The position numbers and the translations under genes were made by a program. From NCBI GenBank assembly GCA_038231435.1, contig JBBRLJ010000015.1:1-64000 (forward strand): a stretch of DNA of 64,000 bases, written 5' to 3'. Source of the DNA: Planctomycetota bacterium. GTDB taxonomy: Bacteria > Planctomycetota > UBA11346. The notes beneath the pieces are model-generated. The model made no database searches and was not told the DNA's origin. It was given only the letters and a program-made list of their open reading frames with translations. Of the stretch, positions 62 to 41,361 are shown piece after piece. Each line of letters opens with the position of its first letter. Within the stretch, counting starts at the first letter, position 1.

Positions 62-203
62 CTAAACCGCGGCGTGAGCCGCCGGCCGCCGAGTCCTGGT
101 TTGCGTGAATAATGGGCGCAGCCCATCACGCAAACTTTCTGGCCGCCCGGCGGACAGAAAGAAGGACGACAAAGGCCGTGGGGGCTCGGGGGCGGAGCCC
201 CCG
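62..203 (-). repeat. Structured intergenic repeat, subfamily A, copy A1 (three-way-junction core 83-178)
   Basis: Contains GGTTTGCGTGAATAATGGGCGCAGCCCATCACGCAAAC, near-identical to copies at 13.7k, 33.2k, 33.3k and 41.2k. Terminal hairpin CGGGGGC-GGA-GCCCCCG at 187-203. Strand given for the T-bulge orientation. Confidence 0.9.
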
Positions 204-206
204 TAC

Positions 207-968
207 TTAAGGCACCAGGACGGCCTGATCGCCTTCCTTGACATCATCGTTCGGATCGACGAGCGAGCCTTTGACGATCTCGCCGTACGAGAGCGCGTCG
301 GAGACGCGGATGATCTTGCAGGTCGCGATCGAGAGGTTGCCGCGGTTGATGGCGAAGCGCTGGTTGACGATGACGCCTTGCTTGGCGCCGGCGCCGATGG
401 CGGCGACGTTGGCCTTGCCCGAGCTGCCGATGTCGACCGCGTAGACCTTGGTCGCGATGCGTTTCGGCTGGGCCGGCTGGTTAGGTAGAGTAGTGGGAGT
501 CGGGGTTGGCCCGGTCGCCACGGCGGGCGCCTCGCTGGGCGCGGACGCCACGGCGGTGGGCCCGGCTGGCGTGGGCGCGGCGGAGCTGTCGCCATCGAGC
601 AGCGAGGTCGCGCGGCGCACGCTCGCCTTGCCTTCCTGCGAGAGCGGCGCCGCCATCGTCGACGCGCTTGGCTTGGGCGCGGCCGCGATCTGCATCACCA
701 GCGACGCGTCATAGAGGGTGACGCGGCTGTCGACCAGGCCCTTGGCGAGTGCGTCGAGCTGGGTCGCCAGCGCCGCCTGTCCGCCGGCCTCGGCGTCGCG
801 CGCGCGCGCGCGGATGATCTCGACGGCGATGCGCGTGGCCTCGTCGCCCGGGATACCCGGGGCGTTGGCCGTGGGCGCAACGGTGGCCGGGGGGATCGGG
901 GTGGTCGGGTTGGTGTCCTGGGCGCAACACGCGGAGGCGGCGAGAATGATCAGGAGGAGCGATCTCAT
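207..968 (-). CDS. Secreted hypothetical protein with Pro/Ala/Thr linkers and a C-terminal FlgT-C-like beta-barrel
   Basis: Signal peptide MRSLLLIILAASACCAQ. ATG overlaps the TGA of the upstream epimerase (ATGA at 965-968). C-terminal pattern IGAGAKQGV...FAINRG...IIRVSDALSYGEI...VKEGDQAV. Confidence 0.7.
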   Translation of the reverse strand: MRSLLLIILAASACCAQDTNPTTPIPPATVAPTANAPGIPGDEATRIAVEIIRARARDAEAGGQAALATQLDALAKGLVDSRVTLYDASLVMQIAAAPKPSASTMAAPLSQEGKASVRRATSLLDGDSSAAPTPAGPTAVASAPSEAPAVATGPTPTPTTLPNQPAQPKRIATKVYAVDIGSSGKANVAAIGAGAKQGVIVNQRFAINRGNLSIATCKIIRVSDALSYGEIVKGSLVDPNDDVKEGDQAVLVP

Positions 969-2032
969 CGGCGATCCTTGCGTGCTTTTGCGGGGGCGGT
1001 GCTTGCTGACGGGTCGGGATCGGCGGTATGCGTGGACAGTACCGCCGGCAGGCGCGAGCTCGCGGGGCGGCGACGATGCCACTCGAGGCTCTCGCGGACG
1101 ATCGCGTCGAGATCCAGGCGCTGTTTCCAGCCGGTGAGGCCGACCAGCTTGGAGACGTCGGGGAGCCGGCGACGCATGTCCTCGAAGCCGCCGTCGGGGA
1201 AGGCGCGGTCGTAGGGGATGAGATCGATGCGCGAGCGGCTGCCCGAGGCGGCGAGCACCTTGCGCGCGAGCTCCGCGATCGAGACCTCCTCGGTGGCGCC
1301 GACGTTCACCACCTGTCCAACCGCGGCCGGACAGTCGAGCAGCGCCAGCACCGCGGAGACCGCGTCCGCGACGTGCAGGAAGCAGCGCGACTGGCCGCCG
1401 TCGCCGTGCACCTCGAGCGCGCGGCCCGCGAGCGCGGCCTCGCAGAAGCGCGGCAGCACCATGCCGTAGTGCGCGCTCTGGCGCGGACCGGTGATGTTGA
1501 AGAAGCGCGCGATCGTCACCGGCAAGCCGCGCTCGCGGACATAGGCGAGGGCGAGGAACTCGTCCATCAGCTTCGAGCAGGCGTAGCTCCAGCGGTGCAG
1601 CGAGCTCGAGCCGAGCACGCTGTCGTCGTCCTCGCGGAACGGCGCGTGCGCCTGCTTGCCGTAGACCTCGCTGGTCGAGGCGTACAGCACCGGCTGCTTG
1701 CCGTGGGCGTGCGCGGCACGCAGCACCGTGGCCGTGCCGTGCAGGTTGGTGACGATGCTGTTGACCTGGCGCTCGAGGATGCGGCGTACGCCCACCGCGG
1801 CGGCCAGATGCACGATGCGCTCGACCTGCTGGCAGGCCTCGTCGACCACCAGTTCGTCGCACACCGAACCATGGATCATCGCCAGGCGGGCGTGACCCTT
1901 GAGGTGCGAGAGGTTGGCTTCCGTGCCAGTCGAATGGTCGTCGAGCACCAACACGTCGTCGCCGCGTCCGATCAGAGCCTCGACGAGGTGGCTGCCGATG
2001 AAGCCGCAGCCGCCGGTGACCAGGTAACGCAT
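965..2032 (-). CDS. NAD-dependent nucleotide-sugar epimerase/dehydratase (extended SDR)
   Basis: LVTGGCGFIGSHL Rossmann motif, HLAAAVGV, ASTSEVYG, YACSK catalytic motif, RFFNITGPRQ. Confidence 0.92.
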   Translation of the reverse strand: MRYLVTGGCGFIGSHLVEALIGRGDDVLVLDDHSTGTEANLSHLKGHARLAMIHGSVCDELVVDEACQQVERIVHLAAAVGVRRILERQVNSIVTNLHGTATVLRAAHAHGKQPVLYASTSEVYGKQAHAPFREDDDSVLGSSSLHRWSYACSKLMDEFLALAYVRERGLPVTIARFFNITGPRQSAHYGMVLPRFCEAALAGRALEVHGDGGQSRCFLHVADAVSAVLALLDCPAAVGQVVNVGATEEVSIAELARKVLAASGSRSRIDLIPYDRAFPDGGFEDMRRRLPDVSKLVGLTGWKQRLDLDAIVRESLEWHRRRPASSRLPAVLSTHTADPDPSASTAPAKARKDRR

Positions 2033-2070
2033 GGGCACAGCATTGGCGCGGCTGGGGTCGTTCAACTTTT

Positions 2071-2110
2071 TGATGGGGGGCTGCGGCCCCCCATCATCGC
2101 GCTCCGCGCT
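2071..2110. repeat. Solo GC-rich hairpins related to the flanking hairpins of the repeat family
   Basis: TGATGGGGGGC-TGCG-GCCCCCCATCA (11-bp stem), then GCGC-TCC-GCGC (GGA triloop on the minus strand). Confidence 0.55.
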
Positions 2111-2168
2111 GCCCCCTGGGAAGGAATGGGAAGGGAGGGTTGGGAGCGGGCGTGCTTGCGCACTGCGC

Positions 2169-4658: not shown

Positions 4659-4731
4659 GGCTTGGCTCTCGGGACGACACGGTGACATCGTCGACCTGAG
4701 GTCAAGGGAGATGCGGACTTTCAGTTATCAC

Positions 4732-4894
4732 AGGGGCTTCGCCCCTACGGCCCGGTCGGGCCTACCCCACGGGCTTTGTCGGGGCTCGATGTCTTCGCTT
4801 CGCTACGACATCGTCGGCGGATGGCTTCGCCATGATATCCGCCGACCGCGCCTGGGCGCCCGGTTGCTGCGCAACGGATGGAGGACGCGGCGTC
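4732..4894 (+). repeat. Structured intergenic repeat, subfamily B, copy B1 (core 4770-4862)
   Basis: Colinear similarity to 28989-29151 (CCCCTACGGCCC...GGGCCTACCCCACGGGCTTTGTCG...GACATCGTCGGCGGATGG...TATCCGCCGACC...GGCGCCCGGTTGC). Same fold as subfamily A. Confidence 0.88.
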
Positions 4895-4952
4895 GTAGAT
4901 CGAGGCCTGCGCTGCTGTCGCGCGCGCGCGCGAGGGGACGTGGCTGGATGAT

Positions 4953-5405
4953 TCAGCGCGCGGGTACGGCGGCGTCGCGCAGGGCCGCGAGGACCTCGTC
5001 GGCGCTCTGGCGGGAGAACGGCAGCACCGTTTTGCGCCAGCGCTCGATGCCCTGCCGATCCACGACCACGATCATGCGCCGCGTGCCGTACCAGGCCTTG
5101 GCCAGGTAGGCGGCGCAGCACGCTCCGCCCGGGTCCGACAGCAGCGGGTAGGGGAATCCGTTGGCGGCCGTGAACGCGGCGTGGCGGTCGTAGTTGGCGG
5201 GATTGATGCCGACGACGTTCGCGCCGGCGCGCGCGAAATCCGCCCAGCGGTTACGGTAATCACAGAGTTGGGCAGTGCACACGCGGGTGAAGTCGCCGGG
5301 ATAGAACACCAGTGCGGCCGGCCCCGCGGCCCAGGCCTTGGACAGGCGGTAGGGCTTTCCTGCCGGATCGATCAGCTCGGCATCGTGCGCCTGCTCGCCG
5401 ATCAT
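4953..5405 (-). CDS. bcp: Peroxiredoxin, BCP/PrxQ family
   Basis: FYPGDFTRVCTAQLC (PxxxTxxC with a resolving Cys), YPLLSDP. Confidence 0.88.
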   Translation of the reverse strand: MIGEQAHDAELIDPAGKPYRLSKAWAAGPAALVFYPGDFTRVCTAQLCDYRNRWADFARAGANVVGINPANYDRHAAFTAANGFPYPLLSDPGGACCAAYLAKAWYGTRRMIVVVDRQGIERWRKTVLPFSRQSADEVLAALRDAAVPAR

Positions 5406-5442
5406 GAGTAAACCATCCAGCGAGCGATATGTCCAATGTGGT

Positions 5443-5478
5443 CGAGGCGTCCGAGGTATCCGAAGCGTCCGAGGCCAC
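5443..5478 (+). repeat. Degenerate 9-bp tandem repeat, 4 units
   Basis: CGAGGCGTC CGAGGTATC CGAAGCGTC CGAGGCCAC. Confidence 0.7.
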
Positions 5479-6852: not shown

Positions 6853-6854
6853 GG

Positions 6855-12102: not shown

Positions 12103-13620
12103 ATGTCCTTCAAGATCGCCTTCATCGGCGCCGGTTCGATCGGATTCACGCGAGGTCTGCTGCGCGACCTGCTCGCGGTGCCCGAGTTCAAGGACATCGA
12201 GGTCGCCTTCCACGACATCAGCAAGCAGAACCTCGACATGGTCACCCAGCTGGCCAGGCGCGACATCGCCGCCAACGGCTTGAAGGTCAAGATCACCCCG
12301 TCGCTCGACCGGCGCGCCTCCCTGAAGGACGCCAAGTACGTCTTCTGCGTCGCCCGCATCGGCGGCATCGAGGCCTTCCAGTCCGACATCGACGTGCCGC
12401 TCAAGTACGGCGTCGACCAGTGCGTGGGCGACACCCTCTGCGCCGGCGGCATCATGTACGGCCAGCGCGGCATCGCGGCGATGCTCGACTTCTGCAAGGA
12501 CATCCGCGAGGTTTCGGCGCCCGATGCGCTGCTCCTAAACTACGCCAACCCGATGGCGATGCTGACCTGGGCGGCGAACGTCCACGGCGGCGTGAAGTGC
12601 GTCGGCCTCTGCCATGGCGTGCAGGGCGGACACCACCAGATCGCCTCGGCGTTCGGCCTCAAGAAGCACGAGGTCGACATCGTCGCCGCCGGCATCAACC
12701 ACCAGACCTGGTACATCAAGGCCTCGCACAAGGGCAAGGATCTGCTCCCCGGCCTGCTCGAAGCCTTCGAGAAGAACCCGCACTTCAACAAGACCGAGAA
12801 GGTGCGCATCGACATGATGCGCCGCTTCGGCTTCTACAGCACCGAATCGAACGGCCACCTCAGCGAGTACGTGCCCTGGTACCGCAAGCGCCCGAGCGAG
12901 ATCTCGAAGTGGATCGACACCGGATGCTGGATCAACGGCGAGACCGGCGGCTACCTGCGCGTCTGCACCGAGGGCCGCAGCTGGTTCGAGACCGACTTCC
13001 CGAACTGGATGAAGGCCGAGCCGATGAAGTTCAAGCCCGAGAACCGGGGCGAGGAGCACGGCTCGTACATCATCGAGGGTCTCGAGACCGGGCGCATCTA
13101 CCGCGGCCATTTCAACGTCATCAACCGCGGCTGCATCACCAACCTGGCCCCCGACGCCATCGTCGAGGTGCCCGGCTACGTCGATCGCAGCGGCATGAAC
13201 ATCCCCATCATCGGCGACCTGCCGCTCGGCTGCGCCGCAGTGTGCACCGCCTCGATCAACGTTCAGCGCATGTCGGTGAAGGCCGCGGTCACTGGCGACG
13301 TCGAGCTGCTCAAGCAGGCGATGCTCATGGATCCGCTCATCGGCGCGGTGTGCAATCCGCCCGAGGTCTGGCAGATGGCCGACGAGATGCTGGTCGCCCA
13401 GGCCAAGTGGCTGCCGCAGTACAAGACCGGCATCGCCGAGGCGAAGAAGCGCCTCGCCGAAGCCAAGCGCAAGGGCACCCTGATCGCGACCCGCGAGGGC
13501 TATGCGGGCGCGGTGCGCATCCACACCAAGACGGTGGCCGAGATGAAGGCCGATCGCGCGGCGGCGAACGAGAACGCCGGCGAATCCGACAAGGCCAAGG
13601 TGCGCAAGGCCGCGGGTTGA
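12103..13620 (+). CDS. melA: GH4 NAD+/Mn2+-dependent alpha-galactosidase/alpha-glucosidase
   Basis: KIAFIGAGS, VGDT..GG, NYANP, GLCHGV, GINH, TESNGHLSEY; AGGAG RBS. Confidence 0.92.
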   Translation: MSFKIAFIGAGSIGFTRGLLRDLLAVPEFKDIEVAFHDISKQNLDMVTQLARRDIAANGLKVKITPSLDRRASLKDAKYVFCVARIGGIEAFQSDIDVPLKYGVDQCVGDTLCAGGIMYGQRGIAAMLDFCKDIREVSAPDALLLNYANPMAMLTWAANVHGGVKCVGLCHGVQGGHHQIASAFGLKKHEVDIVAAGINHQTWYIKASHKGKDLLPGLLEAFEKNPHFNKTEKVRIDMMRRFGFYSTESNGHLSEYVPWYRKRPSEISKWIDTGCWINGETGGYLRVCTEGRSWFETDFPNWMKAEPMKFKPENRGEEHGSYIIEGLETGRIYRGHFNVINRGCITNLAPDAIVEVPGYVDRSGMNIPIIGDLPLGCAAVCTASINVQRMSVKAAVTGDVELLKQAMLMDPLIGAVCNPPEVWQMADEMLVAQAKWLPQYKTGIAEAKKRLAEAKRKGTLIATREGYAGAVRIHTKTVAEMKADRAAANENAGESDKAKVRKAAG

Positions 13621-13624
13621 TAAT

Positions 13625-13770
13625 CGGGGGGCTGGCGCCCCCCAAACCCCCCAACGACCTTTGTCGTCCTTCACCCTGGCCGCTATGCGGCCAGGGTGTT
13701 TGCGTGATGGGCTGCGCCCATTGTTCACGCAAACCAGGACTCGGCGGTCGGGGCGGCGGAGCCGCCCTAA
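13625..13770 (+). repeat. Structured intergenic repeat, copy A2 (core 13655-13750)
   Basis: CGACC-TTT-GTCG-TCCT-TC-[ACCCTGGCCGC-TAT-GCGGCCAGGGT]-[GTTTGCGTGA-TGGGCTGCGCCCA-TTGT-TCACGCAAAC]-C-AGGA-CT-CGGC-GGTCG. Confidence 0.92.
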
Positions 13771-13852
13771 TGGGCGTGTGCTTGTACGAGAAGCTTCTGG
13801 GTGACTGGCCTGTCATCGTGGCTAGGGGCTCCATACTTCGAAGGAGGTCATC

Positions 13853-14650
13853 ATGACGATCGCTTTCCCGAGTATGCGTGCGGTGTTGTCGGTTCTGGCG
13901 CTGGTGATGTTGGCGATGGGTTCCATCCCATCGCTGATGGCGGCAGAGGATGTGGGCGAGCGCGTCAAGCAGGGGGCGGTGGCGGAGCAGGGGGGCGGAG
14001 GGGATGTGCCGCTGATCGCGGATGCGCAGCGGCGGCACGATCTGACGCGGTTGCGGGGGGTTTCTCCGCTGGTGGGGGCGCTGCTGCTGATCGTGGCGGT
14101 GGTGCCGTTGTTCTTCGGGTACCGGTTCCTGCGCCTCGCGATCGGATTCCTGTCGGGGGCGTACGCCGCGATGCTGATGTGGCAGTACGGGATGGGGCCG
14201 CTGCATGGCATAGCGCCATCGGCCGACGGCGAGACGCTGCGGGTGGCGCTGGTGGTATGCTCGTTGATCGCGCTGCTGATCGGATTCGCGCTCGGCTGGT
14301 TCCTCTACAAGCTCCAACTCGGCCTCGCCGGCGCGCTGCTTGGGTTGATGGTGATGTCCTTGCCCGGACTCTATCTCGATTGGCCGTGGCTGACGCTCGC
14401 GCTGATGATCATCGGTGCGGTCATCGGCTTCATCGCCGGCTGGATCGCCGCCCCCTTCTGGGCGGCCCTGCAGACCGCGGTGCTCGGCGGCTTCCTGGTC
14501 GTGCAGGGCACCGCCATCATCACCCAGCAGGGGGCCGACGACCACCATGTCCGCCTCATCGCCTTCAGCGCCGGCATCCTGGCCGCGATCATCGGCTTCG
14601 CTTTTCAAGTCGCCGGCATCCGTCGGCAGAAGCAATCTCCTCCAGCATGA
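13853..14650 (+). CDS. Membrane protein, DUF4203 (TM7S3/TMEM198-like)
   Basis: LFFGYRFLRLAIGFLSG and TAVLGGFLVVQG patterns; about 7 TM helices; AGGAGG RBS. Confidence 0.8.
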   Translation: MTIAFPSMRAVLSVLALVMLAMGSIPSLMAAEDVGERVKQGAVAEQGGGGDVPLIADAQRRHDLTRLRGVSPLVGALLLIVAVVPLFFGYRFLRLAIGFLSGAYAAMLMWQYGMGPLHGIAPSADGETLRVALVVCSLIALLIGFALGWFLYKLQLGLAGALLGLMVMSLPGLYLDWPWLTLALMIIGAVIGFIAGWIAAPFWAALQTAVLGGFLVVQGTAIITQQGADDHHVRLIAFSAGILAAIIGFAFQVAGIRRQKQSPPA

Positions 14651-14658
14651 CTTGTGTG

Positions 14659-14829
14659 CGGGGCGCTGCCCCCGTTTTCCCACGGCCATTGTCGTCCTTC
14701 CTTCTGTCCGTCGGGAGGACTGAAATTTTTCATGATCTGCTTCGCAGATTGTTCAGGAAATCAGGACTTGGCGGCCGCAGGGGTGGAAAAGCACCTCACT
14801 CCTGGAGCCCCATCGCTCCGCAATGGGGC
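14659..14829 (+). repeat. Structured intergenic repeat, diverged copy A3 (core 14683-14777)
   Basis: CGGCC-ATT-GTCG-TCCT-TC...ATCTGC-TTC-GCAGAT-TGT...C-AGGA-CT-TGGC-GGCCG. The apical stem differs from ATGGGC/GCCCAT but still pairs. Confidence 0.8.
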
Positions 14830-14904
14830 GGGCGCCGAGTGACGATCGGCGGATACCATCGGCGATGATGATTCACCGAAGATGTCGCCGGCCCCCGGCC
14901 GATA

Positions 14905-14941
14905 TTGACTTTCAAACAGATGTTTTAATGTCCTGTTTGAA
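14905..14941 (+). promoter_or_regulatory. Putative TetR autoregulatory operator next to a TTGACT -35 box
   Basis: AT-rich island with inverted repeat TTCAAACAG (14911-14919)/CTGTTTGAA (14933-14941) and inner imperfect palindrome TTCAAACAGATGTTTTAA, 25 nt upstream of the TetR start. Confidence 0.65.
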
Positions 14942-14965
14942 CCGCAGCCTCAAGGTAGCTCAGCC

Positions 14966-15814
14966 ATGAAACGCCCTGCCCCGCCTCCGCTGCCGTCCTT
15001 GCCGATCACTGAGGATTCCGGATCGGTCTCCACGCCCGACCGCCTGGTCGAGGCCGCCGGCGAGATCTTCGCCGAGCACGGCTTCCAGAACGCCACGGTG
15101 CGCGAGATCTGCCAGCGCGCCGAGGCGAACATCGCCGCGGTGAACTACCATTTCGGCGATAAACGTGGGCTTTATCACGCGGTCTTCCTGTATGCGCACA
15201 GCTGCGCCGGCAGCGATGAAGTCGCTGGCCACCTGCAGGCGAGCCAACCACGGGCGAAGGACACGTCCAGCGTCAGCAAGGCCGCGCCGGCCGCGCGCCT
15301 GCGCCTGTACATCCATGCCCTGCTCGGACGGATCCTCGACGAAGGACGGCCGGCCTGGCACGCCAAGCTGATGGCGCGCGAGATGGTCGAGCCGACCGGC
15401 GTGCTCGACGACCTGATCGAGCGCAGCATCCGTCCGCATTTCGACGCCTTGCAGCGCCTGATCCGCGAGCTGATCGGCCCGCGCGCGCCCGACGAGACGA
15501 TCAGGCTCTGCGCCATCAGCATCGTTGGCCAATGCGTGTTCTACCGCCATTCGCGGCCGATCATCGCGCGCCTCTATCCCGACCTGCGCTTCACCGCCGA
15601 GCAGGTACGTAAGACCGCCGAGCACATCGCCGACTTCTCGCTCGAGGGCCTGTCGCACTACGTCGGCACGCGCTCCGCTACCCGGGCCAGAGCGCCATCC
15701 GCCGCCATGTCGTCTGCAAGATCAGGCTCTGCCGCGTCTGGTGCCGCCGCATCAGGTGTCCACGTTAGGGGGGTGCCGCGAGTCCAGATGAAGCGCGCCC
15801 GCAAAGCGGGTTGA
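14966..15814 (+). CDS. TetR family regulator with a DUF1956/CecR-type C-terminal domain
   Basis: AAGEIFAEHGFQNATVREICQRAEANIAAVNYHFGDKRGLY HTH; SIVGQCVFY and HIADFSLEGL C-terminal pattern. Confidence 0.9.
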   Translation: MKRPAPPPLPSLPITEDSGSVSTPDRLVEAAGEIFAEHGFQNATVREICQRAEANIAAVNYHFGDKRGLYHAVFLYAHSCAGSDEVAGHLQASQPRAKDTSSVSKAAPAARLRLYIHALLGRILDEGRPAWHAKLMAREMVEPTGVLDDLIERSIRPHFDALQRLIRELIGPRAPDETIRLCAISIVGQCVFYRHSRPIIARLYPDLRFTAEQVRKTAEHIADFSLEGLSHYVGTRSATRARAPSAAMSSARSGSAASGAAASGVHVRGVPRVQMKRARKAG

Positions 15815-26632: not shown

Positions 26633-28984
26633 ATGACCACCGGCCCTCTCGAGCCGGGCCGCAGCGGCGAATTCGCCGTCACCCCCGGCAGCCCGTCGGG
26701 GGCGACGCCGCCGAAGACCGCTGCAGGCAAGTCCGATCGCGTCGGGCCGGGGCCATGGCAGGAGTCGGGCACGTACACTCGGCGCGCCACCGGCGTGGCG
26801 ATCCGTGTACTCGAATCGCTGCTGTCCTCGCACTTCCGCGTGGAGGGAACGCAAAACCTCGGCCGTGGTCCGATCCTGTTCGTCGCCAACCATTTTACCC
26901 GTTTCGAGACCTTCGTCCTGCCGTACATCATCGACCGCTACGCACGTCGGAATGTGCATTCGCTCGCGCACCACTCGCTGTTCCGCGGCCGCTTCGGCGC
27001 CTACCTGCGCTCGATGGGCGCGATGTCGACGCGAGACCCCGACGTGAAGCACGCGATCGTGCAGGACCTCATCCGCGGCGTGAACGACTGGGTCATCTAT
27101 CCCGAAGGGTCGATGATCAAGGACAAGAAGACTTGGGAGAAGGGCAAGTTCTCGATCAACAGTCCCGACCGCGTCGGACCGCCGCACACCGGCGCCGCGG
27201 TGCTGGCGTTGCAGGCTGAGATCTACAAGCAGCTGTACATCGACGCCTGCCAGCGGGGCGACACCGCGAAGATCCAGGATTACGAAAAGCGCTTCCATCT
27301 GTCGGGGATCGATTCGTTGCCGACCGAGCAGATGTCGGTGGTGCCGATCAACATCACGTATTATCCGATCCGGCCGAGCAAGAACCTGCTCTACCGGATC
27401 GCGCGTTTCATGCTCAAGGAGTTGCCGGCCCGGCTCGAGGACGAGTTGATGATCGAGGGCGGTCTGCTGCTCGACAAGACCGACATCAGCATCTATTTCG
27501 GCAAGCCGATCCAGCTCGAGCGCTACCGCGACCTGCTGTGGCCGGCGATCAAGGCCCTCGGCGACATGGACGAGGAGACCAAGGTCCGCACCATCATCGA
27601 TGCGCTGCGGCAGCGTCTGACCAACCGCTTCATGTCGGAGATCTACACCCGCCTGACCGTGAACTTCGACCACCTGTTCTGCTGCGGCCTGCGTGAGCTC
27701 GCTCGCGACAAGGTCGACCAGGAGGACTTCCATCTCGCGCTGTTCCTGGCCGCGCGCCAACTGCAGGCGTCGGGAAGCCGCCACCGCCACAAGAGTCTTG
27801 CCGGCAGGCTGCAATCGATCATTGCCGACGAGCCCAACCCGGTGCTCGAGAGCATCCGCGCGCTCGCGGTGGTCGAGGGCGTGGTCAAGGTCCGCGATCG
27901 TCACTACATCGTCGACCACGAGGCGCTCGACAAGGTTCACACCTTCCATGACATCCGCCTGAAGAACACGCTCGCGGTGATTGCCAACGAGCTCGAACCG
28001 CTGCGCGAGGTGGTGAAGAGCGTGCGTCAGCTGGTGAACCTGCCGCATGCGCAGCTGCGCGCCCGTGCCGCCGATATCCTGCGCGACGAGGACGAGCTGC
28101 TCTACGCCAAGGAGTACGCCGCCTGCGCGGCGACGCCGCATCGCAAGGATCCCGGCACCGGCATGCCGTTCTTCCTTCCTGGCAAGGAATCGCGGCTCGG
28201 CATCGTGCTTTCGCACGGGTACCTGGCCTCGCCAGGCGAGGTGCGCAAGCTCGCGGAACACCTGCAGAGCCTGGGCTACCCGGTCTACGTCGTGCGTCTC
28301 AAGGGCCACGGCACCTCGCCCGAGCACCTGCACACGGTGTCATGGAGCGACTGGCTCGAATCCTTCGACCGTGGCTACGCCTATATCCGCAATACCTGCC
28401 AGCACGTGGTGTGCGGCGGGTTCTCGACCGGCGGCCTGCTCGCACTGCTCGCCGCGGCGCGCAAGGGCGCGGCCGTCGCCGGCACCTTCGCCATCAATCC
28501 GCCGATGAAGCTGGTCGATCGCGCCAGCCATCTCGCGCCGATGGTGGATGGCTGGAACAAGCTGCTCGATCTCCTGCACATCCATCGCGGGCACATGGAT
28601 TACATCGAGAACCATCCTGAATGGCCGCTCACCAACTACGACCGCAACTATGTGCACGGGCTGCACGAGCTCGAGCGCCTGATGAGCGCGACGCGCGCAG
28701 AGCTCCCGCAGGTGGTGTCGCCGACGCTGGTGATCCAGGGCGACCACGATCCGGTCGTCGACGCCTCGAGCGGCGAGACCGTGCTCGGCCTGCTCGGCGC
28801 CGAGCACAAGGAGCTCGCGCGCATGTCCTTCGCGCGGCACTGCATCGTCCAGGGCGAGGGATCCGAGCAGGTCTACGCGCGGGTCGCCGAGTTCCTCGAG
28901 CAGGTCGATGGAGGTCTCGGCCGCAAACGCCCGCCGCGCAACGTCGCGGCCCGCCGCTCCGAACGGATACGCAGGATCTCTTGA
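26633..28984 (+). CDS. Fusion of a PlsC-like glycerolipid acyltransferase and an alpha/beta carboxylesterase
   Basis: N-terminal FVANHFTRFE and IYPEG blocks; C-terminal HGYL, GHGT, GFSTGG nucleophile elbow, QGDHDPVV and a terminal His. Confidence 0.88.
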   Translation: MTTGPLEPGRSGEFAVTPGSPSGATPPKTAAGKSDRVGPGPWQESGTYTRRATGVAIRVLESLLSSHFRVEGTQNLGRGPILFVANHFTRFETFVLPYIIDRYARRNVHSLAHHSLFRGRFGAYLRSMGAMSTRDPDVKHAIVQDLIRGVNDWVIYPEGSMIKDKKTWEKGKFSINSPDRVGPPHTGAAVLALQAEIYKQLYIDACQRGDTAKIQDYEKRFHLSGIDSLPTEQMSVVPINITYYPIRPSKNLLYRIARFMLKELPARLEDELMIEGGLLLDKTDISIYFGKPIQLERYRDLLWPAIKALGDMDEETKVRTIIDALRQRLTNRFMSEIYTRLTVNFDHLFCCGLRELARDKVDQEDFHLALFLAARQLQASGSRHRHKSLAGRLQSIIADEPNPVLESIRALAVVEGVVKVRDRHYIVDHEALDKVHTFHDIRLKNTLAVIANELEPLREVVKSVRQLVNLPHAQLRARAADILRDEDELLYAKEYAACAATPHRKDPGTGMPFFLPGKESRLGIVLSHGYLASPGEVRKLAEHLQSLGYPVYVVRLKGHGTSPEHLHTVSWSDWLESFDRGYAYIRNTCQHVVCGGFSTGGLLALLAAARKGAAVAGTFAINPPMKLVDRASHLAPMVDGWNKLLDLLHIHRGHMDYIENHPEWPLTNYDRNYVHGLHELERLMSATRAELPQVVSPTLVIQGDHDPVVDASSGETVLGLLGAEHKELARMSFARHCIVQGEGSEQVYARVAEFLEQVDGGLGRKRPPRNVAARRSERIRRIS

Positions 28985-28988
28985 TCAA

Positions 28989-29151
28989 GTAGAGGCGCTG
29001 CCCCTACGGCCCTATGGGCCTACCCCACGGGCTTTGTCGTGGTTCGATGTCGCGTGACGGCGACATCGTCGGCGGATGGGCTTCGCCCATTGTATCCGCC
29101 GACCACCCCTCGGCGCCCGGTTGCTTCGCAACGGATCGAGGGCGCAGCGTC
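28989..29151 (+). repeat. Structured intergenic repeat, subfamily B, copy B2 (core 29028-29119)
   Basis: GTAG...CTAC hairpins, then CGGGC-TTT-GTCG-TGGT-TC-[GATGTCGC..GCGACATC]-[GTCGGCGGA-TGGGCTTCGCCCA-TTGTA-TCCGCCGAC]-C-ACCC-CT-CGGC-GCCCG. Confidence 0.9.
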
Positions 29152-32092: not shown

Positions 32093-33100
32093 ATGGTGAA
32101 GGTCGGAATCATCGGACTCGGCATGATGGGGCGGACGCATTACGAGGCGTACGCAAAGGTGCCGGGCGCGCAGGTGGTCGCGGTCGCGGACATGGACCCG
32201 AAGCGCGCCAAGGGCGACCTCTCTGGAACCGCCGGCAACGTGGTGGCGGGCGAAGTCTCGCAGCTGCCGATGGACCGCATCAAGGGGTTCTCTGACTATC
32301 GCCAGCTGATCGCGATGCCCGAGGTGGACGTGGTCGACATCTGCCTGCCCACCACCTCGCATCGCGAGGTCGCGCTCGCAGCGCTCACCGCCGGCAAGCA
32401 CGTGCTGTGCGAGAAGCCGCTCGGCCGCGACCTCGCCGATGCCACGGCCATCGCCGCCGCAGCTGCCGCCGCCAAGGGCTTCTTCATGCCGGCGATGTGC
32501 ATGCGCTTCTGGCCGGGCTGGACCTGGCTCAAGGCGGCGGTCGCCGAGCGGCGCTACGGCACGGTGGTGTCCGCCACCTTCCGCCGCGTCGCCTCGATGC
32601 CGGCCGGCTGGTATCGCGACGGCAAGCTCTCGGGCGGCGCGGCGCTCGATCTGCACATCCACGATACCGACTTCGTCTACCACCTCTTCGGCAAGCCGGC
32701 GTCGGTGTTCAGCCGCGGCTACGCCAAGACTTCGGGCGCCATCGATCATCTCGTCACCCACTACCTGTACGAGCGCGGCCCGCTGGTGGTCGCCGAAGGC
32801 GGCTGGGCGATGGCCGACGGTTTCGGATTCTCGATGCGTTACACGGTGAATTTCGAGCGCGCCACTGCCGACTTCGATCTCGCGCGGGCGCAGCCGTTGA
32901 TGCTCGCGCAGGGGGGGAAGTCCGAGACCGTCCCTTGCGGTTCGGAGACCGGCTACGAAGGCGAGCTGGCGTACTTCATCGATTGCGTGGCGAAGAAGCG
33001 TCGCCCCGAGACCGTCACCGCTCAGCATGCGGTTGACGGCCTCGCCATCATCGAGGCGGAGGTGAAGAGCATCGCCGAGGGCCGTCCGGTGGCTTTATAG
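32093..33100 (+). CDS. Gfo/Idh/MocA family oxidoreductase
   Basis: GIIGLGMMG, DVVDICLPT..H, HVLCEKP, DLHIHD; AGGAG RBS. Confidence 0.93.
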   Translation: MVKVGIIGLGMMGRTHYEAYAKVPGAQVVAVADMDPKRAKGDLSGTAGNVVAGEVSQLPMDRIKGFSDYRQLIAMPEVDVVDICLPTTSHREVALAALTAGKHVLCEKPLGRDLADATAIAAAAAAAKGFFMPAMCMRFWPGWTWLKAAVAERRYGTVVSATFRRVASMPAGWYRDGKLSGGAALDLHIHDTDFVYHLFGKPASVFSRGYAKTSGAIDHLVTHYLYERGPLVVAEGGWAMADGFGFSMRYTVNFERATADFDLARAQPLMLAQGGKSETVPCGSETGYEGELAYFIDCVAKKRRPETVTAQHAVDGLAIIEAEVKSIAEGRPVAL

Positions 33101-33220
33101 CCGGGGGCTCTGCCCCCGGGCCCCCGCGCGCCTTTGTCGCCCTTCATTTTGGCCGCGGGCCAAAATGTTTGGGTGATGGGCTGCGCCCATTGTTCACCCA
33201 AACCAGAGCTCGGCGGCCGG
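33101..33220 (+). repeat. Structured intergenic repeat, copy A4 (first of a tandem pair)
   Basis: GGGGGCTCTGCCCCC...CCTTTGTCGCCCTTC-ATTTTGGCC-GCG-GGCCAAAAT-GTTTGGGTGA...TCACCCAAAC-CAGAGCTCGGCGGCCG; starts immediately after the TAG of the Gfo gene. Confidence 0.92.
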
Positions 33221-33232
33221 GTGCTATTTAGT

Positions 33233-33388
33233 CGGGGGCTCTGCCCCCGGGCCCCCGCGCGCCTTTGTCGTTCTTCTTTTTGTCCGTGCCGGCCAAAAAG
33301 TTTGCGTGATGGGCTGCGCCCATTGTTCACGCAAACCAGAACTCGGCGGCCGGCGGCTTTGGCCGCGGTTTAAAGGGGCTCTGCCCCT
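33233..33388 (+). repeat. Structured intergenic repeat, copy A5 (second of the tandem pair) plus a trailing AGGGGCTCTGCCCCT hairpin
   Basis: First about 38 nt identical to A4; GTTTGCGTGA/TCACGCAAAC stem; TTCT/AGAA replaces TCCT/AGGA. Confidence 0.92.
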
Positions 33389-36262: not shown

Positions 36263-36305
36263 CGCCAACGCCAATGCCGACAGGGCAGCTCGCCGAGCGG
36301 ACGCT

Positions 36306-37148: not shown

Positions 37149-37385
37149 GCGACCTCCGTCTGGGTATGCACGGACCATAGGGGGGCTGGCCCGGGCGGTG
37201 GGAATGGGCTTGGACCCGCGAAGGATGAAGTTCCAATCGCACTGGAGGATTTGCGCCCACGCCTCCGGGCGCGGGTCTTGCGCCGCGTCCACGCCGGGTA
37301 ACACGATCGCGCCCGGCATTCCCGACATCGTCCACTCATCAGCGACATCGTCCTATCTCCGACCTACTTACGACCGACACCAGAC

Positions 37386-38393
37386 ATGACCACCAAGCCG
37401 AACCTGCTGATCAATCTGCCCAAGGGCTTCTTCAAGACCCCGGCCATGGCGCCGGTCTTCAAGCGGCTCGGCGCCATCGCCGAGGTGCGCAGGCGCTCGC
37501 ACAATACCCACGATGAGATCGCCAAGGATCTGGCCTGGGCCGATGCGGTGATCATGTGGTCGTGGCCGGCCTACACCCCGGAGCTGCTCGCCCGCGCGCC
37601 CAAGCTGGCGTTCTCGGGACACCTCGACATCAACCAGGCCGGCGCCCGCGTCGCGCTCGCGCACGGCCTGCCGGTGTCGCTGAGCAAGAAGGCATGGGGC
37701 CCATCGGTCGCGGAGATGGCGCTGACTCTGATCCTGACCACCCTGCGCAAGACCAGCTCCTACCACGCCGCGATGCGCGTCGGCAAGGAGGCCTGGGTCG
37801 CTGATTTCCCCATCGACATCGACACCGACGAACGCCAGCTCACCGGGCGTCCGGTCGGCATCGTGGGCTTCGGTGCGGTTGGCCAGCGCGTCGCAGAACT
37901 GCTTGCGCCATTCCGCTGCCAGGTGCGGGTCTACGACCCGTTCCTGCCGGCCGAGATCGCCGAGCGCGCTGGAGCGTCGCGCGTCGAGCTCATGGACCTG
38001 ATCCGGAATTCGGATGTGGTGGTGCTGTGCGCCGCCTCGAACCCGGGCACCGCATCGCTGCTCGGCAAGCGCGAGCTCGCTGCGTTCCGCAAAGGAGCGG
38101 TGCTGGTGAACGTGGCGCGCGCCGCCCTGGTCGACACCGCCGCCCTGGTGGCACGCCTGAAGAAGAACGACTTCTACGCCGCCATCGACGTCTTCGATCT
38201 CGAGCCGCTCGCGCGCAATTCGCCCCTGCGCAAACTGCCGAACGCGTTCCTGACCCCGCATCGCGCCGGCGGCGTGATGGAGTCGGTGGTGCGCATCGTC
38301 TCGTGGCTCGCCGACGACTTCGAGGCGCACCTCGCGGGCAAGCCGCGCGCGCACGCCTTGAGCGAGAAGCAGCTGCCTGCTCTCGACGCCTGA
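37386..38393 (+). CDS. D-isomer specific 2-hydroxyacid dehydrogenase
   Basis: SVAEM, GIVGFGAVG, LVNVARA, IDVFDLEP, LTPHRAG. Confidence 0.9.
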   Translation: MTTKPNLLINLPKGFFKTPAMAPVFKRLGAIAEVRRRSHNTHDEIAKDLAWADAVIMWSWPAYTPELLARAPKLAFSGHLDINQAGARVALAHGLPVSLSKKAWGPSVAEMALTLILTTLRKTSSYHAAMRVGKEAWVADFPIDIDTDERQLTGRPVGIVGFGAVGQRVAELLAPFRCQVRVYDPFLPAEIAERAGASRVELMDLIRNSDVVVLCAASNPGTASLLGKRELAAFRKGAVLVNVARAALVDTAALVARLKKNDFYAAIDVFDLEPLARNSPLRKLPNAFLTPHRAGGVMESVVRIVSWLADDFEAHLAGKPRAHALSEKQLPALDA

Positions 38394-38395
38394 TT

Positions 38396-38445
38396 CCATC
38401 TCCAAGACATCCATCCTCCAGACATCCATCCATCCCGCCCGCCCA
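38396..38445 (+). repeat. Low-complexity TCCA/ATCC short tandem repeats
   Basis: TCCATCTCCAAGACATCCATCCTCCAGACATCCATCCATCCCGCCCGCCC. Confidence 0.5.
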
Positions 38446-38457
38446 CCTAGGACCCAT

Positions 38458-39279
38458 ATGGCCGACCCGATCAAGTTCAGCGCTCCCGACTGGTGCTTCT
38501 TCCGCGAGAATCCCGACCCGGCGGCCTACTACCGCAAGCTCAAGCAGCTCGGCTTCACCGGCGTCGAGATGGTCGATCCATCGCGCTGGCCCGCGGCCCG
38601 CTCCGCCGGACTCTCGATTCTCAACATTCCCGGACCGGGCATGGAGAAGGGCCTCAACCGCGTCGAGAACCATGCCGAATTGGTGCCGAAGATCCGCGCG
38701 CTGATCGATCAGGCGGCATTCGAGAAGATCCCCCATGTCATCGTCTTCAGCGGCAACCGCGGCGGGCTCGACGATCGCACTGGCCTGTCGAATTGCGCGA
38801 CCGCCCTCGGCCCATTGGCGCGCGAAGCCGACAAGGCGCGGGTGACGCTGATCTTCGAGATGTTCTGCCAGCAGAACCATCCGGATTACATGGCCGACAA
38901 CTCGCGCTTCGGCTTCGACCTCGTGCAGAAGGTCGGCTCGCGCTCGCTGAAGGTGCTCTACGACATCTACCACATGGCGCAGATGGGCGAGGACGTCATC
39001 AAGGACATCACCGGCAATCTCAAGTCGGTCGCGCACATCCATGTCGCCGAGAAGCCCAAGCGCACCGCCCCGCTCCCGGCCGGCGAGATCCCGTACGGCA
39101 AGATCGTGCGCGCGGTGCACGAGGCCGGCTACAGCGGCTATTGGGGCCTCGAATACCACGCCGCTCCGGACCATTTCTCCGAAATGGGCGAGGCTCTCAT
39201 GGCCCTCAAGTCGGGGGCATCCGGTCCCACGGCTTCGGCCTCCGGCCTGCCCCCCAAGAAGCAGGATCAGGGGGGATAG
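38458..39279 (+). CDS. Hydroxypyruvate isomerase family TIM-barrel protein
   Basis: GFTGVEM, IVFSGNR, HPDYMAD, LYDIYHM, HIHVAE..RTAP..GEI, GYWGLEY. Confidence 0.85.
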   Translation: MADPIKFSAPDWCFFRENPDPAAYYRKLKQLGFTGVEMVDPSRWPAARSAGLSILNIPGPGMEKGLNRVENHAELVPKIRALIDQAAFEKIPHVIVFSGNRGGLDDRTGLSNCATALGPLAREADKARVTLIFEMFCQQNHPDYMADNSRFGFDLVQKVGSRSLKVLYDIYHMAQMGEDVIKDITGNLKSVAHIHVAEKPKRTAPLPAGEIPYGKIVRAVHEAGYSGYWGLEYHAAPDHFSEMGEALMALKSGASGPTASASGLPPKKQDQGG

Positions 39280-39287
39280 GAACGTCG

Positions 39288-40670
39288 GTGAACAAGCTCG
39301 ATCAGTCGTCCTTGCGCATCATGCGCAAGTTCGCGGGCTTCGTTGCATGCGCGGTGTGCGCCCTCAACGGGTTCGGCGCCGCTTCCATGGTCGCTGCTGC
39401 CGAGACTGCCAAGGCCGAGGAACCGGCGTTCGAGAGCCGTGAGAGCGGGGAGTGGCCACAGTACGGATACGACGCGGGGTGCCGGTTCGCGACACCTGGA
39501 TCGCTGGCCTCGGTGCTCAAACCCAAATGGGTGTTCAAGCGGGCGCCGCCGGCGGCGCGAATCGCATCCATCATCATCCATGGCGATCGCGTGCTGGTCG
39601 AGTGCACTGGCGATCAGAATGGCGACGCCAAGATCGGCGATCCCGCGAACAATCCGTACCTCTACGGCCTCGACGCCGCGACTGGGGCCAAGGCTTGGGA
39701 GTGGTCGCACAAGCACGACATGGGCATCGGCTGCACGCTCGCGGTGTCGGGGACCAAGCTGTTCTACAACGACGACGGCTTCGGCTGGGTCGATGTCGAG
39801 AAGGGTGGAGGCAACGATTTCGGCAGCTCGGCCGATAGCTGGGGTTACATCAATGTCGATGCCAAGGCCGGGCTGGTGGTGAAGTCCAACACCTGGCGCG
39901 TCGACAATCCCGAGACCTCGATCGAGGGCTTCGGCCTGGACGGCAGCCACAGGTGGACGGCCCTCAACGACAATGGCCAGAAGACCCAGGATCGCATGGC
40001 CTTCGCCTCGCTCTGCCAAGGCGCGGGCCTGGTGTTCGTGTCGGTCGAATGGTCCGGACCTTCGCCGAAGAAGCACAAACAGGGGTTGTACGCCCTGAAG
40101 CAAGCCGACGGCAGCGAGGCATGGGGCGTCGAGGGCGATTGGGGCGGCGTATCGTGCGACGGAAACTTCGTGTACTGCGTGCTCAAGGACGCCAAGGGCT
40201 GCAAGCTCTGCTGCCTGACGCCAGGCGATGGCAAACCGCAATGGTCGGCCAACGTCGGTCAGCACGTCCATCATCCGCCGGCCCTGGGCCGCGGCATGTG
40301 CGTGCTGGTCACCGATGGCGGCACCTTGCTGGCGGTGCCGAGCGAAGGTGCCAAGGCGGGCAAGGCTCTGGCATGGCAAGGCCAGACCGAGCCACCGCTC
40401 AAGGGCGACGGCGTATCGGTGCGCAATTCGGTGCTCGCCATCGCCGAAGGCGCCGGCAAGAACGGCGTGTTGGTGGTGGCGAATGGCAAATCGGTGCGCT
40501 GCCTCGATCTGAAGCGCGGGTCGCCGTTGGGCGAACTTCCCTGGGATCCAGCGCTCGGCGCCGCCGAGAATCCGGCCATCGCCGACGGGTGCCTGGTGGT
40601 GAACGGCTCCGAGGGCGTGATGTGCTACGGCCCGCCTCCCGACAAGAAGGACAAGGCGAAAGCGAAATGA
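39288..40670 (+). CDS. Exported PQQ/BamB-like beta-propeller repeat protein
   Basis: Signal peptide; WPQYGYDAG; repeated LYGLDAATGAKAW, LYALKQADGSEAW, LTPGDGKPQW. Start is GTG 39288 or ATG 39321. Confidence 0.85.
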   Translation: MNKLDQSSLRIMRKFAGFVACAVCALNGFGAASMVAAAETAKAEEPAFESRESGEWPQYGYDAGCRFATPGSLASVLKPKWVFKRAPPAARIASIIIHGDRVLVECTGDQNGDAKIGDPANNPYLYGLDAATGAKAWEWSHKHDMGIGCTLAVSGTKLFYNDDGFGWVDVEKGGGNDFGSSADSWGYINVDAKAGLVVKSNTWRVDNPETSIEGFGLDGSHRWTALNDNGQKTQDRMAFASLCQGAGLVFVSVEWSGPSPKKHKQGLYALKQADGSEAWGVEGDWGGVSCDGNFVYCVLKDAKGCKLCCLTPGDGKPQWSANVGQHVHHPPALGRGMCVLVTDGGTLLAVPSEGAKAGKALAWQGQTEPPLKGDGVSVRNSVLAIAEGAGKNGVLVVANGKSVRCLDLKRGSPLGELPWDPALGAAENPAIADGCLVVNGSEGVMCYGPPPDKKDKAKAK

Positions 40671-41131
40671 GCTCTCACGCGCGAGATGTACCTGGGGTGG
40701 TTGCGATGATCGGTCGCATCCTGCTCGGCGTGACCACGGCGATGGTCGTGCCCGCATCGCTCGTGCTGGTTTCCTGCGGAGAGACTCCAGCACCCGCGCC
40801 CGCGCCAGCTGCCATTCAAGTGGACCCCGCGGATCCCACGATGGCGTCCCCGGTTGCCCCCGCGTCTATGCCCGTGCCAGAGCCCGTGTCGAAGCAAGGG
40901 ACGCTGCCGGCAGAAACGGTGACTCCCGCGCTCGCGGCCGATGCACCGCAACTCGAACAGCCCGCCGTCGAGGCGAAGCCGACGACGGCGCACTACGTAT
41001 GTCCCAGACACCCGCAGGTGATCAGCGACATTCCGGGCAAGTGTCCAGAGTGCGGCCTGAAACTCATGAAGCGCGCCGCCGACGCGCCTCCACCCACGCC
41101 GTCCACGGAAGTTCCGCCCCCGCGACCTTGA
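40667..41131 (+). CDS. Pro-rich lipoprotein with a heavy-metal-binding domain (HMBD)
   Basis: Lipobox LVSC; YVCPRHPQVISDIPGKCPECGLKL; ATGA overlap with the upstream gene. Confidence 0.8.
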   Translation: MSSHARDVPGVVAMIGRILLGVTTAMVVPASLVLVSCGETPAPAPAPAAIQVDPADPTMASPVAPASMPVPEPVSKQGTLPAETVTPALAADAPQLEQPAVEAKPTTAHYVCPRHPQVISDIPGKCPECGLKLMKRAADAPPPTPSTEVPPPRP

Positions 41132-41163
41132 CCGTCGCCGCGCTACGAACGCCCGGAGACACC

Positions 41164-41290
41164 TAAAAAACCCGAGCGGCGCAGCCGCGAGCGCCCGCCG
41201 AGCTCCGGTTTGCGTGAACAATGGGCGAAGTCCATCACGCAAACGTTTTCGCGCGTAGCGCGAAAACGAGGAGCGGCAAAGGGCGGGGGC
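41164..41290 (-). repeat. Structured intergenic repeat, copy A6 (core 41192-41285)
   Basis: Minus strand: CGCCC-TTT-GCCG-CTCC-TC-[GTTTTCGCGC-TAC-GCGCGAAAAC]-[GTTTGCGTGA..TCACGCAAAC]-C-GGAG-CT-CGGC-GGGCG. Confidence 0.9.
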
Positions 41291-41306
41291 CCCGCACAAA
41301 ACGCCA

Positions 41307-41361
41307 GCGGCCAAAATGAAGCGCGACAAAGGCGCGCGGGGGCCCGGGGGCAGAGCCCCCG
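41307..41361 (-). repeat. Truncated 5' half of the repeat (A7), near-identical to the start of A4
   Basis: Reverse complement CGGGGGCTCTGCCCCCGGGCCCCCGCGCGCCTTTGTCGCGCTTCATTTTGGCCGC matches 33102-33156 with one mismatch. Confidence 0.85.

What the first reader, a model, noticed from the sequence alone, without database searches (positions are those of the whole stretch)
62..41361. Dispersed family of about 95-nt elements with a covariation-supported three-way-junction fold (8 full copies and 1 partial)
Seen: cores at 83-178(-), 4770-4862, 13655-13750, 14683-14777, 29028-29119, about 33128-33219, about 33259-33352 and 41192-41285(-) all parse as P1a-TTT-P1b-P1c-TC-[P2]-[P3 with TTGT-type bulge and triloop]-C-P1c'-CT-P1b'-P1a'. 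Paired positions change together. P1a: CGGCC/GGCCG, CGACC/GGTCG, CGCCC/GGGCG, CGGGC/GCCCG. P1c: TCCT/AGGA, TTCT/AGAA, CTCC/GGAG. P3: GTTTGCGTGA/TCACGCAAAC, GTTTGGGTGA/TCACCCAAAC, GTCGGCGGA/TCCGCCGAC. Apical stem: ATGGGC/GCCCAT, ATCTGC/GCAGAT. P2 varies widely in sequence but is always a 21-25-nt hairpin. The unpaired TTT, TC, C and CT residues are nearly invariant. A few copies carry single mismatches (A4 and B P1c; A4/A5 P1a). Inference: selection acts on a branched shape with specific bulges, which is more elaborate than a simple REP palindrome. I do not recognise it as a known RNA or DNA motif. At about 1 copy per 8 kb it could number in the hundreds genome-wide. It could be a protein-recognised ssDNA substrate of a non-autonomous mobile element or an undescribed structured RNA.
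Basis: partly seen in the sequence, partly recalled or inferred. Interest (0 to 1): 0.9.

Follow-up and report, generated by a model that had tools for sequence, protein, structure and literature searches.

The report
Branched DNA repeat abutting gene ends
This bacterium carries about 300 copies of a small branched DNA repeat that sits mostly right against the ends of genes; it behaves like a known kind of mobile palindromic repeat, but the enzyme that spreads it was not found.

Summary
All 8 cores and the partial copy are present. The genome holds 299 hits (255 near-full). The family occurs in 35 of 47 other genomes of one Planctomycetota family and in 0 of 135 genomes from other families. 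Nine of 32 pairs covary after a tree-aware null; Rfam has no match. Three corrections: (1) the core is one module of a leader-head-core-tail unit; (2) the folding strand is probably the opposite one, as single-stranded DNA (TNC loops 184/197 read as GNA mini-hairpins; C·T mismatches 170/226 read as G·A); (3) P1b is invariant, not covarying. New here: the head end abuts gene 3' ends (stop codons 116/162 against 6% expected; tRNA ends; terminator U-tracts), often supplies the stop codon, and cuts into older copies. Orthologous sites are mostly empty (21/24), so it is mobile. No cognate RAYT, IS91, Ssn, DUF559, IS110 or reverse transcriptase was found. An IS110 in two relatives has a bridge-RNA guide matching the head. 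Verdict: new variant of REP/BIME-like non-autonomous repeats; mobiliser and gene-end targeting unexplained.

The parts
1..25 (+). type-T tail hairpin of a copy cut off by the contig start
   Evidence: same module as the type-T tails
44..82 (-). tail hairpin and degenerate second head of copy 1
179..212 (-). type-B head (179-202) and T-rich leader holding the stop codon of the upstream gene (207-209)
2066..2122 (+). sister repeat: similar leader and head, no three-way core (44 copies in the genome)
4722..4769 (+). leader and type-A head (GTAG-tagged hairpins on the opposite strand); faces a gene start 74 nt away
4770..4876 (+). core copy 2 (4770-4862) and tail hairpin
13616..13654 (+). leader with stop codon (gene ends 13620) and type-B head
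13655..13767 (+). core copy 3 (13655-13750) and tail hairpin
14648..14777 (+). stop codon (gene ends 14650), leader, head and decayed core copy 4 (14683-14777)
14804..14904 (-). partial core (14829-14904) with type-T tail (14804-14828), convergent with copy 4
28982..29133 (+). leader at the stop codon (gene ends 28984), type-A head, core copy 5 (29028-29119), tail hairpin; orthologous site empty in G001 and G002
33092..33219 (+). leader with stop codon (gene ends 33100), head, core copy 6 (33127-33219)
33220..33388 (+). second tandem unit (131-nt period): leader, head, core copy 7 (33258-33352), tail hairpin, degenerate head
41170..41300 (-). core copy 8 (41192-41285) with shortened head and tail hairpin
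41301..41372 (-). truncated older copy (head 41346-41360 plus the first part of a core) with its leader at the stop codon (gene ends 41367)

Best explanation
A non-autonomous mobile repeat of the REP/BIME type. One unit is: a T-rich leader of about 10 nt starting with (G)CT, a head hairpin, the three-way-junction core, and a variable tail hairpin. SHOWN: it is dispersed, lies outside called genes, is gained and lost between relatives, forms head-to-tail and convergent arrays, and its head end abuts gene 3' ends and truncates older copies. An enzyme acting in trans, most likely a nick-and-join HUH type and either unassembled, lost or of an unrecognised family, binds this fold, cuts at the leader and joins the leader to a nearby or distant site ending in purine-C. 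Joining with loss of the intervening DNA moves the head up to the edge of indispensable sequence (last codons, tRNA end, terminator), and excised circles seed new sites and arrays. The head is the mobility module; the core is one of at least two bodies that carry it.
For: Mobility: 21 of 24 orthologous sites (over 55% identity; 2 rows from near-identical locus L102 dropped) lack the core in G000; 29 of 36 over all best hits. The site at window 28990 is empty in G001 and G002. Match counts run from 0 to over 85 within one genus. 0 of 186 clusters lie inside called genes. Strand: apical loop TNC in 184 of 197 with all four N, P2 mismatches C·T in 170 of 226, and the DNA fold favours the opposite strand in 184 of 225. 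GNA mini-hairpins are very stable in DNA, and the one RNA counterpart quoted is far weaker (PMC13037366, passages). 38 copies from the G006-area loci stack G-C, C·T, T·C, i.e. tandem G·A on the other strand; the DNA fold of window 13615-13775(-) uses that register. Head end: CT at the leader start in 176 of 233, preceded by a purine in 86%. About 19 of 26 listed junctions cut into older copies of either orientation; in the cases read by eye the rest of the old copy is missing. Type-A heads (143 of 249) carry GTAG next to the stem on the GNA strand. TnpA-REP cuts at C|T, does strand transfer and is proposed to excise circles and build tandem arrays (PMC3333891, PMC8266576, passages). An IS110 targets the head as IS621 targets REPs.
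Against: No cognate enzyme gene. Of 70 Y1 loci checked (of 122 matches), 4 have a full or degenerate copy on one side and none on both. No enzyme family recurs among 1146 adjacent ORFs. The C|T junction is on the strand opposite to GTAG and the GNA loops, unlike RAYT substrates; type-B heads lack an adjacent tag. The deletion ratchet predicts heads abutting promoters; this was not significant (11 of 21 against 8.9 expected). Sense orientation is favoured 33:12 in co-directional spacers, and 14 of 44 sister copies start exactly one base after a stop codon, sharper than a ratchet easily gives. The shuffle control for CT (mean 120) does not keep the T gradient, and in foreign loci CT was barely above it (60 of 97 against 52).
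Confidence: 0.55

Rival explanations
1. RNA-end capture. The repeat is transcribed; a reverse transcriptase copies it and jumps onto the 3' end of a cellular RNA (tRNA, terminated transcript, mRNA cut at a stop codon). The cDNA, which is the GNA strand, recombines into the chromosome through the captured arm.
For: Junctions fall at the tRNA discriminator base, +C or +CCA; 14 of 21 tRNA-to-head distances are 8-13 nt. Several heads sit in terminator U-tracts. 14 of 44 sister copies begin right after a stop. Only 226 of about 4,100 leader-like sites outside gene bodies or at gene ends are near a same-strand stop, and empty stops are not T-rich, so a DNA target motif does not explain the position. 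Sense bias 33:12.
Against: No RVT_1 match in 5 of 12 element-rich genomes including G000, and a match in 9 of 12 element-free ones (genomes incomplete). About 27 of the 46 outer heads not near a stop face a gene start. The leader has a consensus shared across genomes and is copied in tandem units. Older copies are cut in both orientations.
Confidence: 0.15
2. A host-selected 3'-UTR RNA structure on the reader's strand (exonuclease barrier, terminator aid or protein-binding site), spread by some other route and kept for its effect on transcripts.
For: 116 of 162 outer heads lie within 20 nt of a same-strand stop. The three-way junction is in the RNA minimum-energy fold in 210 of 225. T·G and G·T pairs are wobble-compatible on this strand.
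Against: Sites are not conserved. 12 of 47 relatives have no match. Neighbours are unrelated genes. TNC triloops and C·T mismatches give RNA no known stability (own knowledge). Arrays and truncated copies fit a selfish element.
Confidence: 0.15
3. No dedicated enzyme. Host polymerase stalling and template switching at the stable hairpins makes duplications and deletions; gene conversion spreads variants; palindrome correction creates covariation without selection on shape.
For: No enzyme found. Many stem pairs change on both sides on one branch, e.g. 14 double against 4 single changes at one apical pair. Long perfect arrays in G006, about 17 units at one locus.
Against: Needs a route to 186 unlinked clusters. 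Does not explain a fixed leader end, conserved mismatches and bulges that palindrome correction would erase, or the long-range P1a/P1c covariation across the junction.
Confidence: 0.15

Closest known systems
REP/BIME/REPIN repeats with TnpA-REP (RAYT) (PMC3333891, PMC8266576, PMC6006769, PMC3733652; passages read)
   Same: Hundreds of extragenic palindromic copies; tandem and inverted clusters; GTAG next to a GC stem in type-A heads; conserved mismatches; CT at junctions; termini that supply stop codons (also noted for GTAG REPs in PMC3733652).
   Different: Unit of about 130-175 nt with a three-way junction rather than a 20-40 nt hairpin; tags point outwards; the junction CT is on the non-GTAG strand; no flanked RAYT gene found; exact abutting of tRNA 3' ends.
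Ssn (GIY-YIG) nucleases with NTS/SRM repeats (PMC11893778; passages read)
   Same: Strand-specific ssDNA hairpin repeat in hundreds of copies, lineage-restricted, cut a few bases from the hairpin.
   Different: No CGTC tag; the GIY-YIG genes found are not flanked by the element.
IS621-type IS110 elements targeting REPs (PMC11208160; passages read)
   Same: An IS110 in G044 and G049 sits at the CT of the leader-head boundary at two different loci; its predicted right target guide is the exact complement of the 7 bases from that CT.
   Different: The repeat is the target, not the bridge RNA; this IS110 group is found in 7 of 47 relatives and not in G000.
attC sites, ssi/sso origins and phage N4 promoters (folded ssDNA substrates; ssi and N4 from PMC13037366 passages, attC end motif from a PMC8632094 passage, the rest recalled)
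   Same: Function as folded ssDNA with extrahelical bases or GNA loops; attC also follows stop codons (recalled).
   Different: No conserved RYYYAAC/GTTRRRY ends; neighbours are ordinary chromosomal genes; no core found in viral contigs or plasmids.
MITEs/TIMEs (recalled)
   Same: Short, non-coding, high-copy, patchy.
   Different: No consistent target-site duplication in 49 head-to-tail-T units; only a 6-7 bp G/C inverted end, and only in some copies.

Membership tests
REP/BIME (RAYT-associated) | High-copy extragenic palindromes | tested here: met
   299 hits; 0 of 186 clusters inside called genes
REP/BIME (RAYT-associated) | Clusters of tandem or inverted units | tested here: met
   86 of 186 clusters have 2-5 cores; 27 simple convergent pairs
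REP/BIME (RAYT-associated) | GT[AG]G 0-2 nt 5' of a hairpin | tested here: inconclusive
   Met in type-A heads (143 of 249), not in type B
REP/BIME (RAYT-associated) | Cognate tnpA-REP gene flanked by the repeat | tested here: not met
   70 of 122 Y1 matches checked; none flanked on both sides. Assemblies break at the repeat (134 of 299 hits within 400 nt of a contig end), so absence is not proven.
REP/BIME (RAYT-associated) | Cleavage at CT on the tagged strand | not testable with these tools
   The junction CT lies on the opposite strand; needs an enzyme assay
Ssn/SRM | CGTC-tagged hairpins flanking an ssnA gene | tested here: not met
   10 GIY-YIG loci in 5 genomes; no small GIY-YIG gene flanked
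MITE | Terminal inverted repeats and target-site duplication | tested here: not met
   Longest shared flank word 2-5 nt in 41 of 49 units
IS91/ISCR ends | Y2 transposase next to the element | tested here: not met
   None in G000; present in 2 of 12 element-rich genomes; 0 of 11 loci hold a core
Retron/group II-type retroelement | Linked reverse transcriptase | tested here: not met
   No RVT_1 in G000; no correlation with copy number; 0 of 3 RT loci hold a core; the other RT loci were not inspected
attC | RYYYAAC...GTTRRRY ends | tested here: not met
   Column counts show no such conserved ends
attC | Integron integrase nearby | not tested
   No search for IntI was run
Rfam families | Score above the gathering threshold | tested here: not met

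The most novel reading that the evidence does not exclude
A family of non-autonomous elements whose insertion point is set by the ends of cellular RNAs or by terminating ribosomes (stop codon, tRNA discriminator/CCA, terminator U-tract), mobilised by an enzyme class not yet linked to repeats, with a branched G·A-rich ssDNA fold as its recognition signal.
Probability: 0.2. Interest if true: 0.88.

Novelty: new variant of a known kind. Interest (0 to 1): 0.62.

Why it matters
How REP-like repeats spread is still open. This family adds a much larger branched substrate, thousands of natural variants that can map its structure, and base-precise junctions at gene ends that make the insertion rule testable. 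It rewrites the last codons of host proteins and the CCA ends of tRNA genes, and it breaks metagenome assemblies in a whole uncultured family. The programmed IS110 is a natural example of a bridge recombinase aimed at a repeat. If the enzyme is new or RNA-end-guided, it would be a new route of mobility and a possible tool for inserting DNA at gene ends.

Tried and rejected
Y1/RAYT as linked enzyme: the one Pfam hit in G000 (C28) lies 5 kb from the nearest copy and has other repeats. A degenerate Y1-like gene (C25) is found in 15 of 24 relatives without relation to copy number. IS91, GIY-YIG, DUF559, IS110 as mobiliser and reverse transcriptase: not linked. Pfam scans of 59, 73 and 27 element-adjacent ORFs lacking a G000 homolog (of 74, 77 and 29 candidates) found no transposase or recombinase; many have no Pfam family and were not followed up. 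The G000 neighbours were not all scanned against Pfam. Viral contigs: 0 hits for the core and for the type-A head; 11 stretches for the type-B head, none with a core among the 10 searched. Plasmids: 2 chance hits. Sequencing runs: no RNA holder listed. Laying contigs at 85% likeness gave no usable empty-site joint. Leading/lagging strand bias: none seen (92:82 against 593:518 for genes; rough skew method). Promoter abutting: not significant (weights recalled). A genome-wide strand count of one tandem-mismatch motif went against the asymmetry (85 against 113), but it includes coding DNA. Literature: seven searches showed no description of this family; subscription papers are not covered and supplements (e.g. 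the REP tables of PMC3733652 and PMC6006769) were not read. Earlier findings: none returned.
Full report
1. The observation. A refined covariance model returns these eight and the partial copy, nothing else, in the window. The anchor pattern occurs 8 times, against 0.015 on average in 200 shuffles. Rfam gives no match at gathering level and only weak partial hits in a permissive scan of 13550-15000. An iterated nhmmer search of the whole genome (5.2 Mb, 108 contigs) gives 299 hits, 255 near full length, in 186 clusters; 134 hits lie within 400 nt of a contig end, so the true number is probably higher.

2. Covariation. On a 122-row alignment from many genomes, 30 of 38 pairs show changes on both sides, and the score is 0.484 against 0.140 in shuffles (fitted to the model, so it leans towards it). 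My own test placed columns mainly by sequence anchors and kept the tree. It used 355 distinct copies of 546 collected; the rest failed the strict parse or were duplicates. Nine of 32 pairs reached E<0.013, including pairs of P1a and P1c that close the junction; two non-model hits were adjacent columns. P1b is invariant and gives no support. Many changes are double on a single branch, which selection or palindrome-correcting mutation could both give.

3. The unit is larger than the core. Tandem periods are mostly 127-192 nt, and simple pairs in opposite orientation are all convergent. A sister family of 44 near-identical copies has a similar leader and head but no three-way core. The type-B head alone also occurs in viral contigs without the core. 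I infer that the head end is the mobile part.

4. Which strand folds. The apical loop is TNC in 184 of 197 copies, with all four middle bases, and 170 of 226 mismatches in P2 are C·T. On the opposite strand these are C-GNA-G triloops and G·A pairs. GCGNAGC mini-hairpins are extraordinarily stable in DNA, only GNA loops form them, and the RNA counterpart quoted is much weaker (PMC13037366, passages). DNA energies favour the opposite strand in 184 of 225 copies; RNA energies tie. I put about 75% on the opposite strand as ssDNA (judgement).

5. Range and mobility. Model R2 matches 35 of 47 other genomes of the class, which is a single family, with 0 to over 85 matches within one genus, and 0 of 135 genomes from other families (only 29 candidates scored per genome). 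Of 24 foreign sites whose upstream gene has a G000 homolog above 55% identity (2 rows from the near-identical locus L102 dropped), 21 lack the core in G000, two of these holding the sister repeat; one of the three shared sites carries a different subtype. The site at window 28990 is empty in both same-genus genomes.

6. Where it sits. No cluster lies inside a called gene (my own gene caller). Of 162 outermost heads, 116 start within 20 nt of a same-strand stop codon, against 6% for random intergenic positions. Stop usage there is TGA 48, TAG 42, TAA 20, against 2887, 809 and 248 genome-wide, and 56 of 88 stops lie inside the leader. Several foreign copies have different last codons from the G000 homolog (L101, L119, L124, L132, L158). 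Four of 57 tRNA calls in G000 are followed directly by a full element and one by the sister repeat. 19 of 68 tRNA calls in foreign loci are listed as followed by a head, of which I discount two as doubtful calls (these loci were chosen for holding elements). Fourteen of 21 tRNA-to-head distances are 8-13 nt, with junctions at the discriminator base, +C or +CCA. About five heads sit in terminator U-tracts. Empty stops are not T-rich, and only 226 of about 4,100 leader-like sites outside gene bodies or at gene ends are near a same-strand stop, so a DNA target motif does not explain the position. About 27 heads face gene starts instead; in co-directional spacers sense orientation wins 33 to 12.

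7. The junction. A CT begins the leader in 176 of 233 copies, preceded by a purine in 86% (the shuffle control is weak). About 19 of 26 listed junctions cut into an older copy, in either orientation, often just after a C. In the cases I read, the rest of the old copy is not found downstream, which points to joining with deletion. In the sister family, 14 of 44 leaders begin one base after a stop codon and about ten follow a truncated head. No consistent target-site duplication was found in 49 units.

8. The enzyme was not found. I checked 70 of 122 Y1 matches in the family. Four have a copy on one side, about what element density would give by my estimate, and none is flanked; several of those RAYTs have repeats of their own. 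IS91, GIY-YIG, DUF559, IS110 and reverse transcriptase genes are not linked and do not track copy number. No enzyme family recurs among 1146 adjacent ORFs. All genomes are incomplete bins that break at this repeat, so a flanked gene may be missing.

9. An IS110 targets the repeat. In G044 and G049 an IS110-family element (Pfam DEDD and Transposase_20) sits at two different loci; in both, its right end joins the CT just before the head. In four related copies the predicted right target guide matches each copy's own flank at 7 of 7 bases, across three different flank sequences (guides read by eye, following PMC11208160 passages). The G044 and G049 guide spells the leader-head boundary; the corresponding 9-mer lies at a head in 35 of 42 occurrences in foreign loci but only 1 of 36 in G000. 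This parallels IS621 and REPs. It does not explain the spread: this IS110 group is in 7 of 47 relatives and not in G000.

10. How it most likely works. Best reading (0.55): a non-autonomous REP/BIME-like element. Its GNA strand folds when single-stranded; an enzyme in trans cuts at the leader and joins it to other sites; deletions and selection bring the head to the edge of indispensable DNA; excised circles seed new loci and arrays, as proposed for TnpA-REP (PMC3333891, PMC8266576; passages). Distribution, junctions and asymmetry are shown; enzyme, chemistry and ratchet are inferred. Rivals at 0.15 each: capture of RNA 3' ends through reverse transcription, a selected 3'-UTR RNA, and enzyme-free replication errors. 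The base-precise abutting of stop codons and tRNA ends is the part that no reading explains well.

11. Comparison and verdict. It works like a REP/BIME repeat but is not filed as a RAYT-associated REP: the flanked transposase was looked for and not found, the tag is present in one subtype only, and the junction CT is on the other strand. It is not a MITE, attC, SRM or Rfam RNA by the tests listed. Seven literature searches showed no description of it. I read passages only, from PMC3733652, PMC6006769, PMC8266576, PMC3333891, PMC11893778, PMC13037366, PMC8632094 and PMC11208160, and no supplements, whose REP tables could hold a related head motif. Novelty: new variant of a known kind. Interest 0.62.

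Noticed in passing
window 2066-2122 (+) and 43 other G000 sites: A young sister repeat with a similar leader and head but another body; 23 of 44 lie within 20 nt of a same-strand stop, 14 starting exactly one base after it.
   Followed up: partly
L422 (G044:C9), L423 (G049:C81), L426, L431: IS110-family elements whose predicted bridge-RNA target guides change with their flanks; two are aimed at this repeat, and two in G181 (L429, L432) sit in another palindromic repeat.
   Followed up: partly
G000:C25:40509-41333 (L173:1010-1834): Single-copy Y1-transposase-like gene with the first HUH histidine and the catalytic tyrosine apparently replaced, no Pfam hit, found in 15 of 24 relatives; possibly a domesticated DNA-binding protein.
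   Followed up: partly
L024-L029, L049, L052, L398, L402: Relatives carry at least four other RAYT-linked repeat families, one with a long 147-nt tandem array (L052).
   Followed up: no
L366 (G006:C7:176304-178744): Array of about 17 tandem units starting at the 3' end of a tRNA-Leu gene; G006 copies carry extra inserted hairpin modules.
   Followed up: partly
L325, L329, L330, L334 (one 202-kb viral contig) and L333: The type-B head occurs several times within other compound hairpin repeats, without the core.
   Followed up: no
L001 (G000:C28:21759-24935): A 348-aa long-type Y1 transposase next to a tyrosine integrase and two tRNA-like genes, with its own short direct repeats.
   Followed up: no
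G000:C30 near 50 and other gene ends: Short 6-7 nt tandem repeats follow some stop codons, a separate repeat class.
   Followed up: no
window 43401-46808 (-): 1135-aa Ser/Thr kinase with leucine-rich repeats and a C-type lectin-like domain.
   Followed up: no
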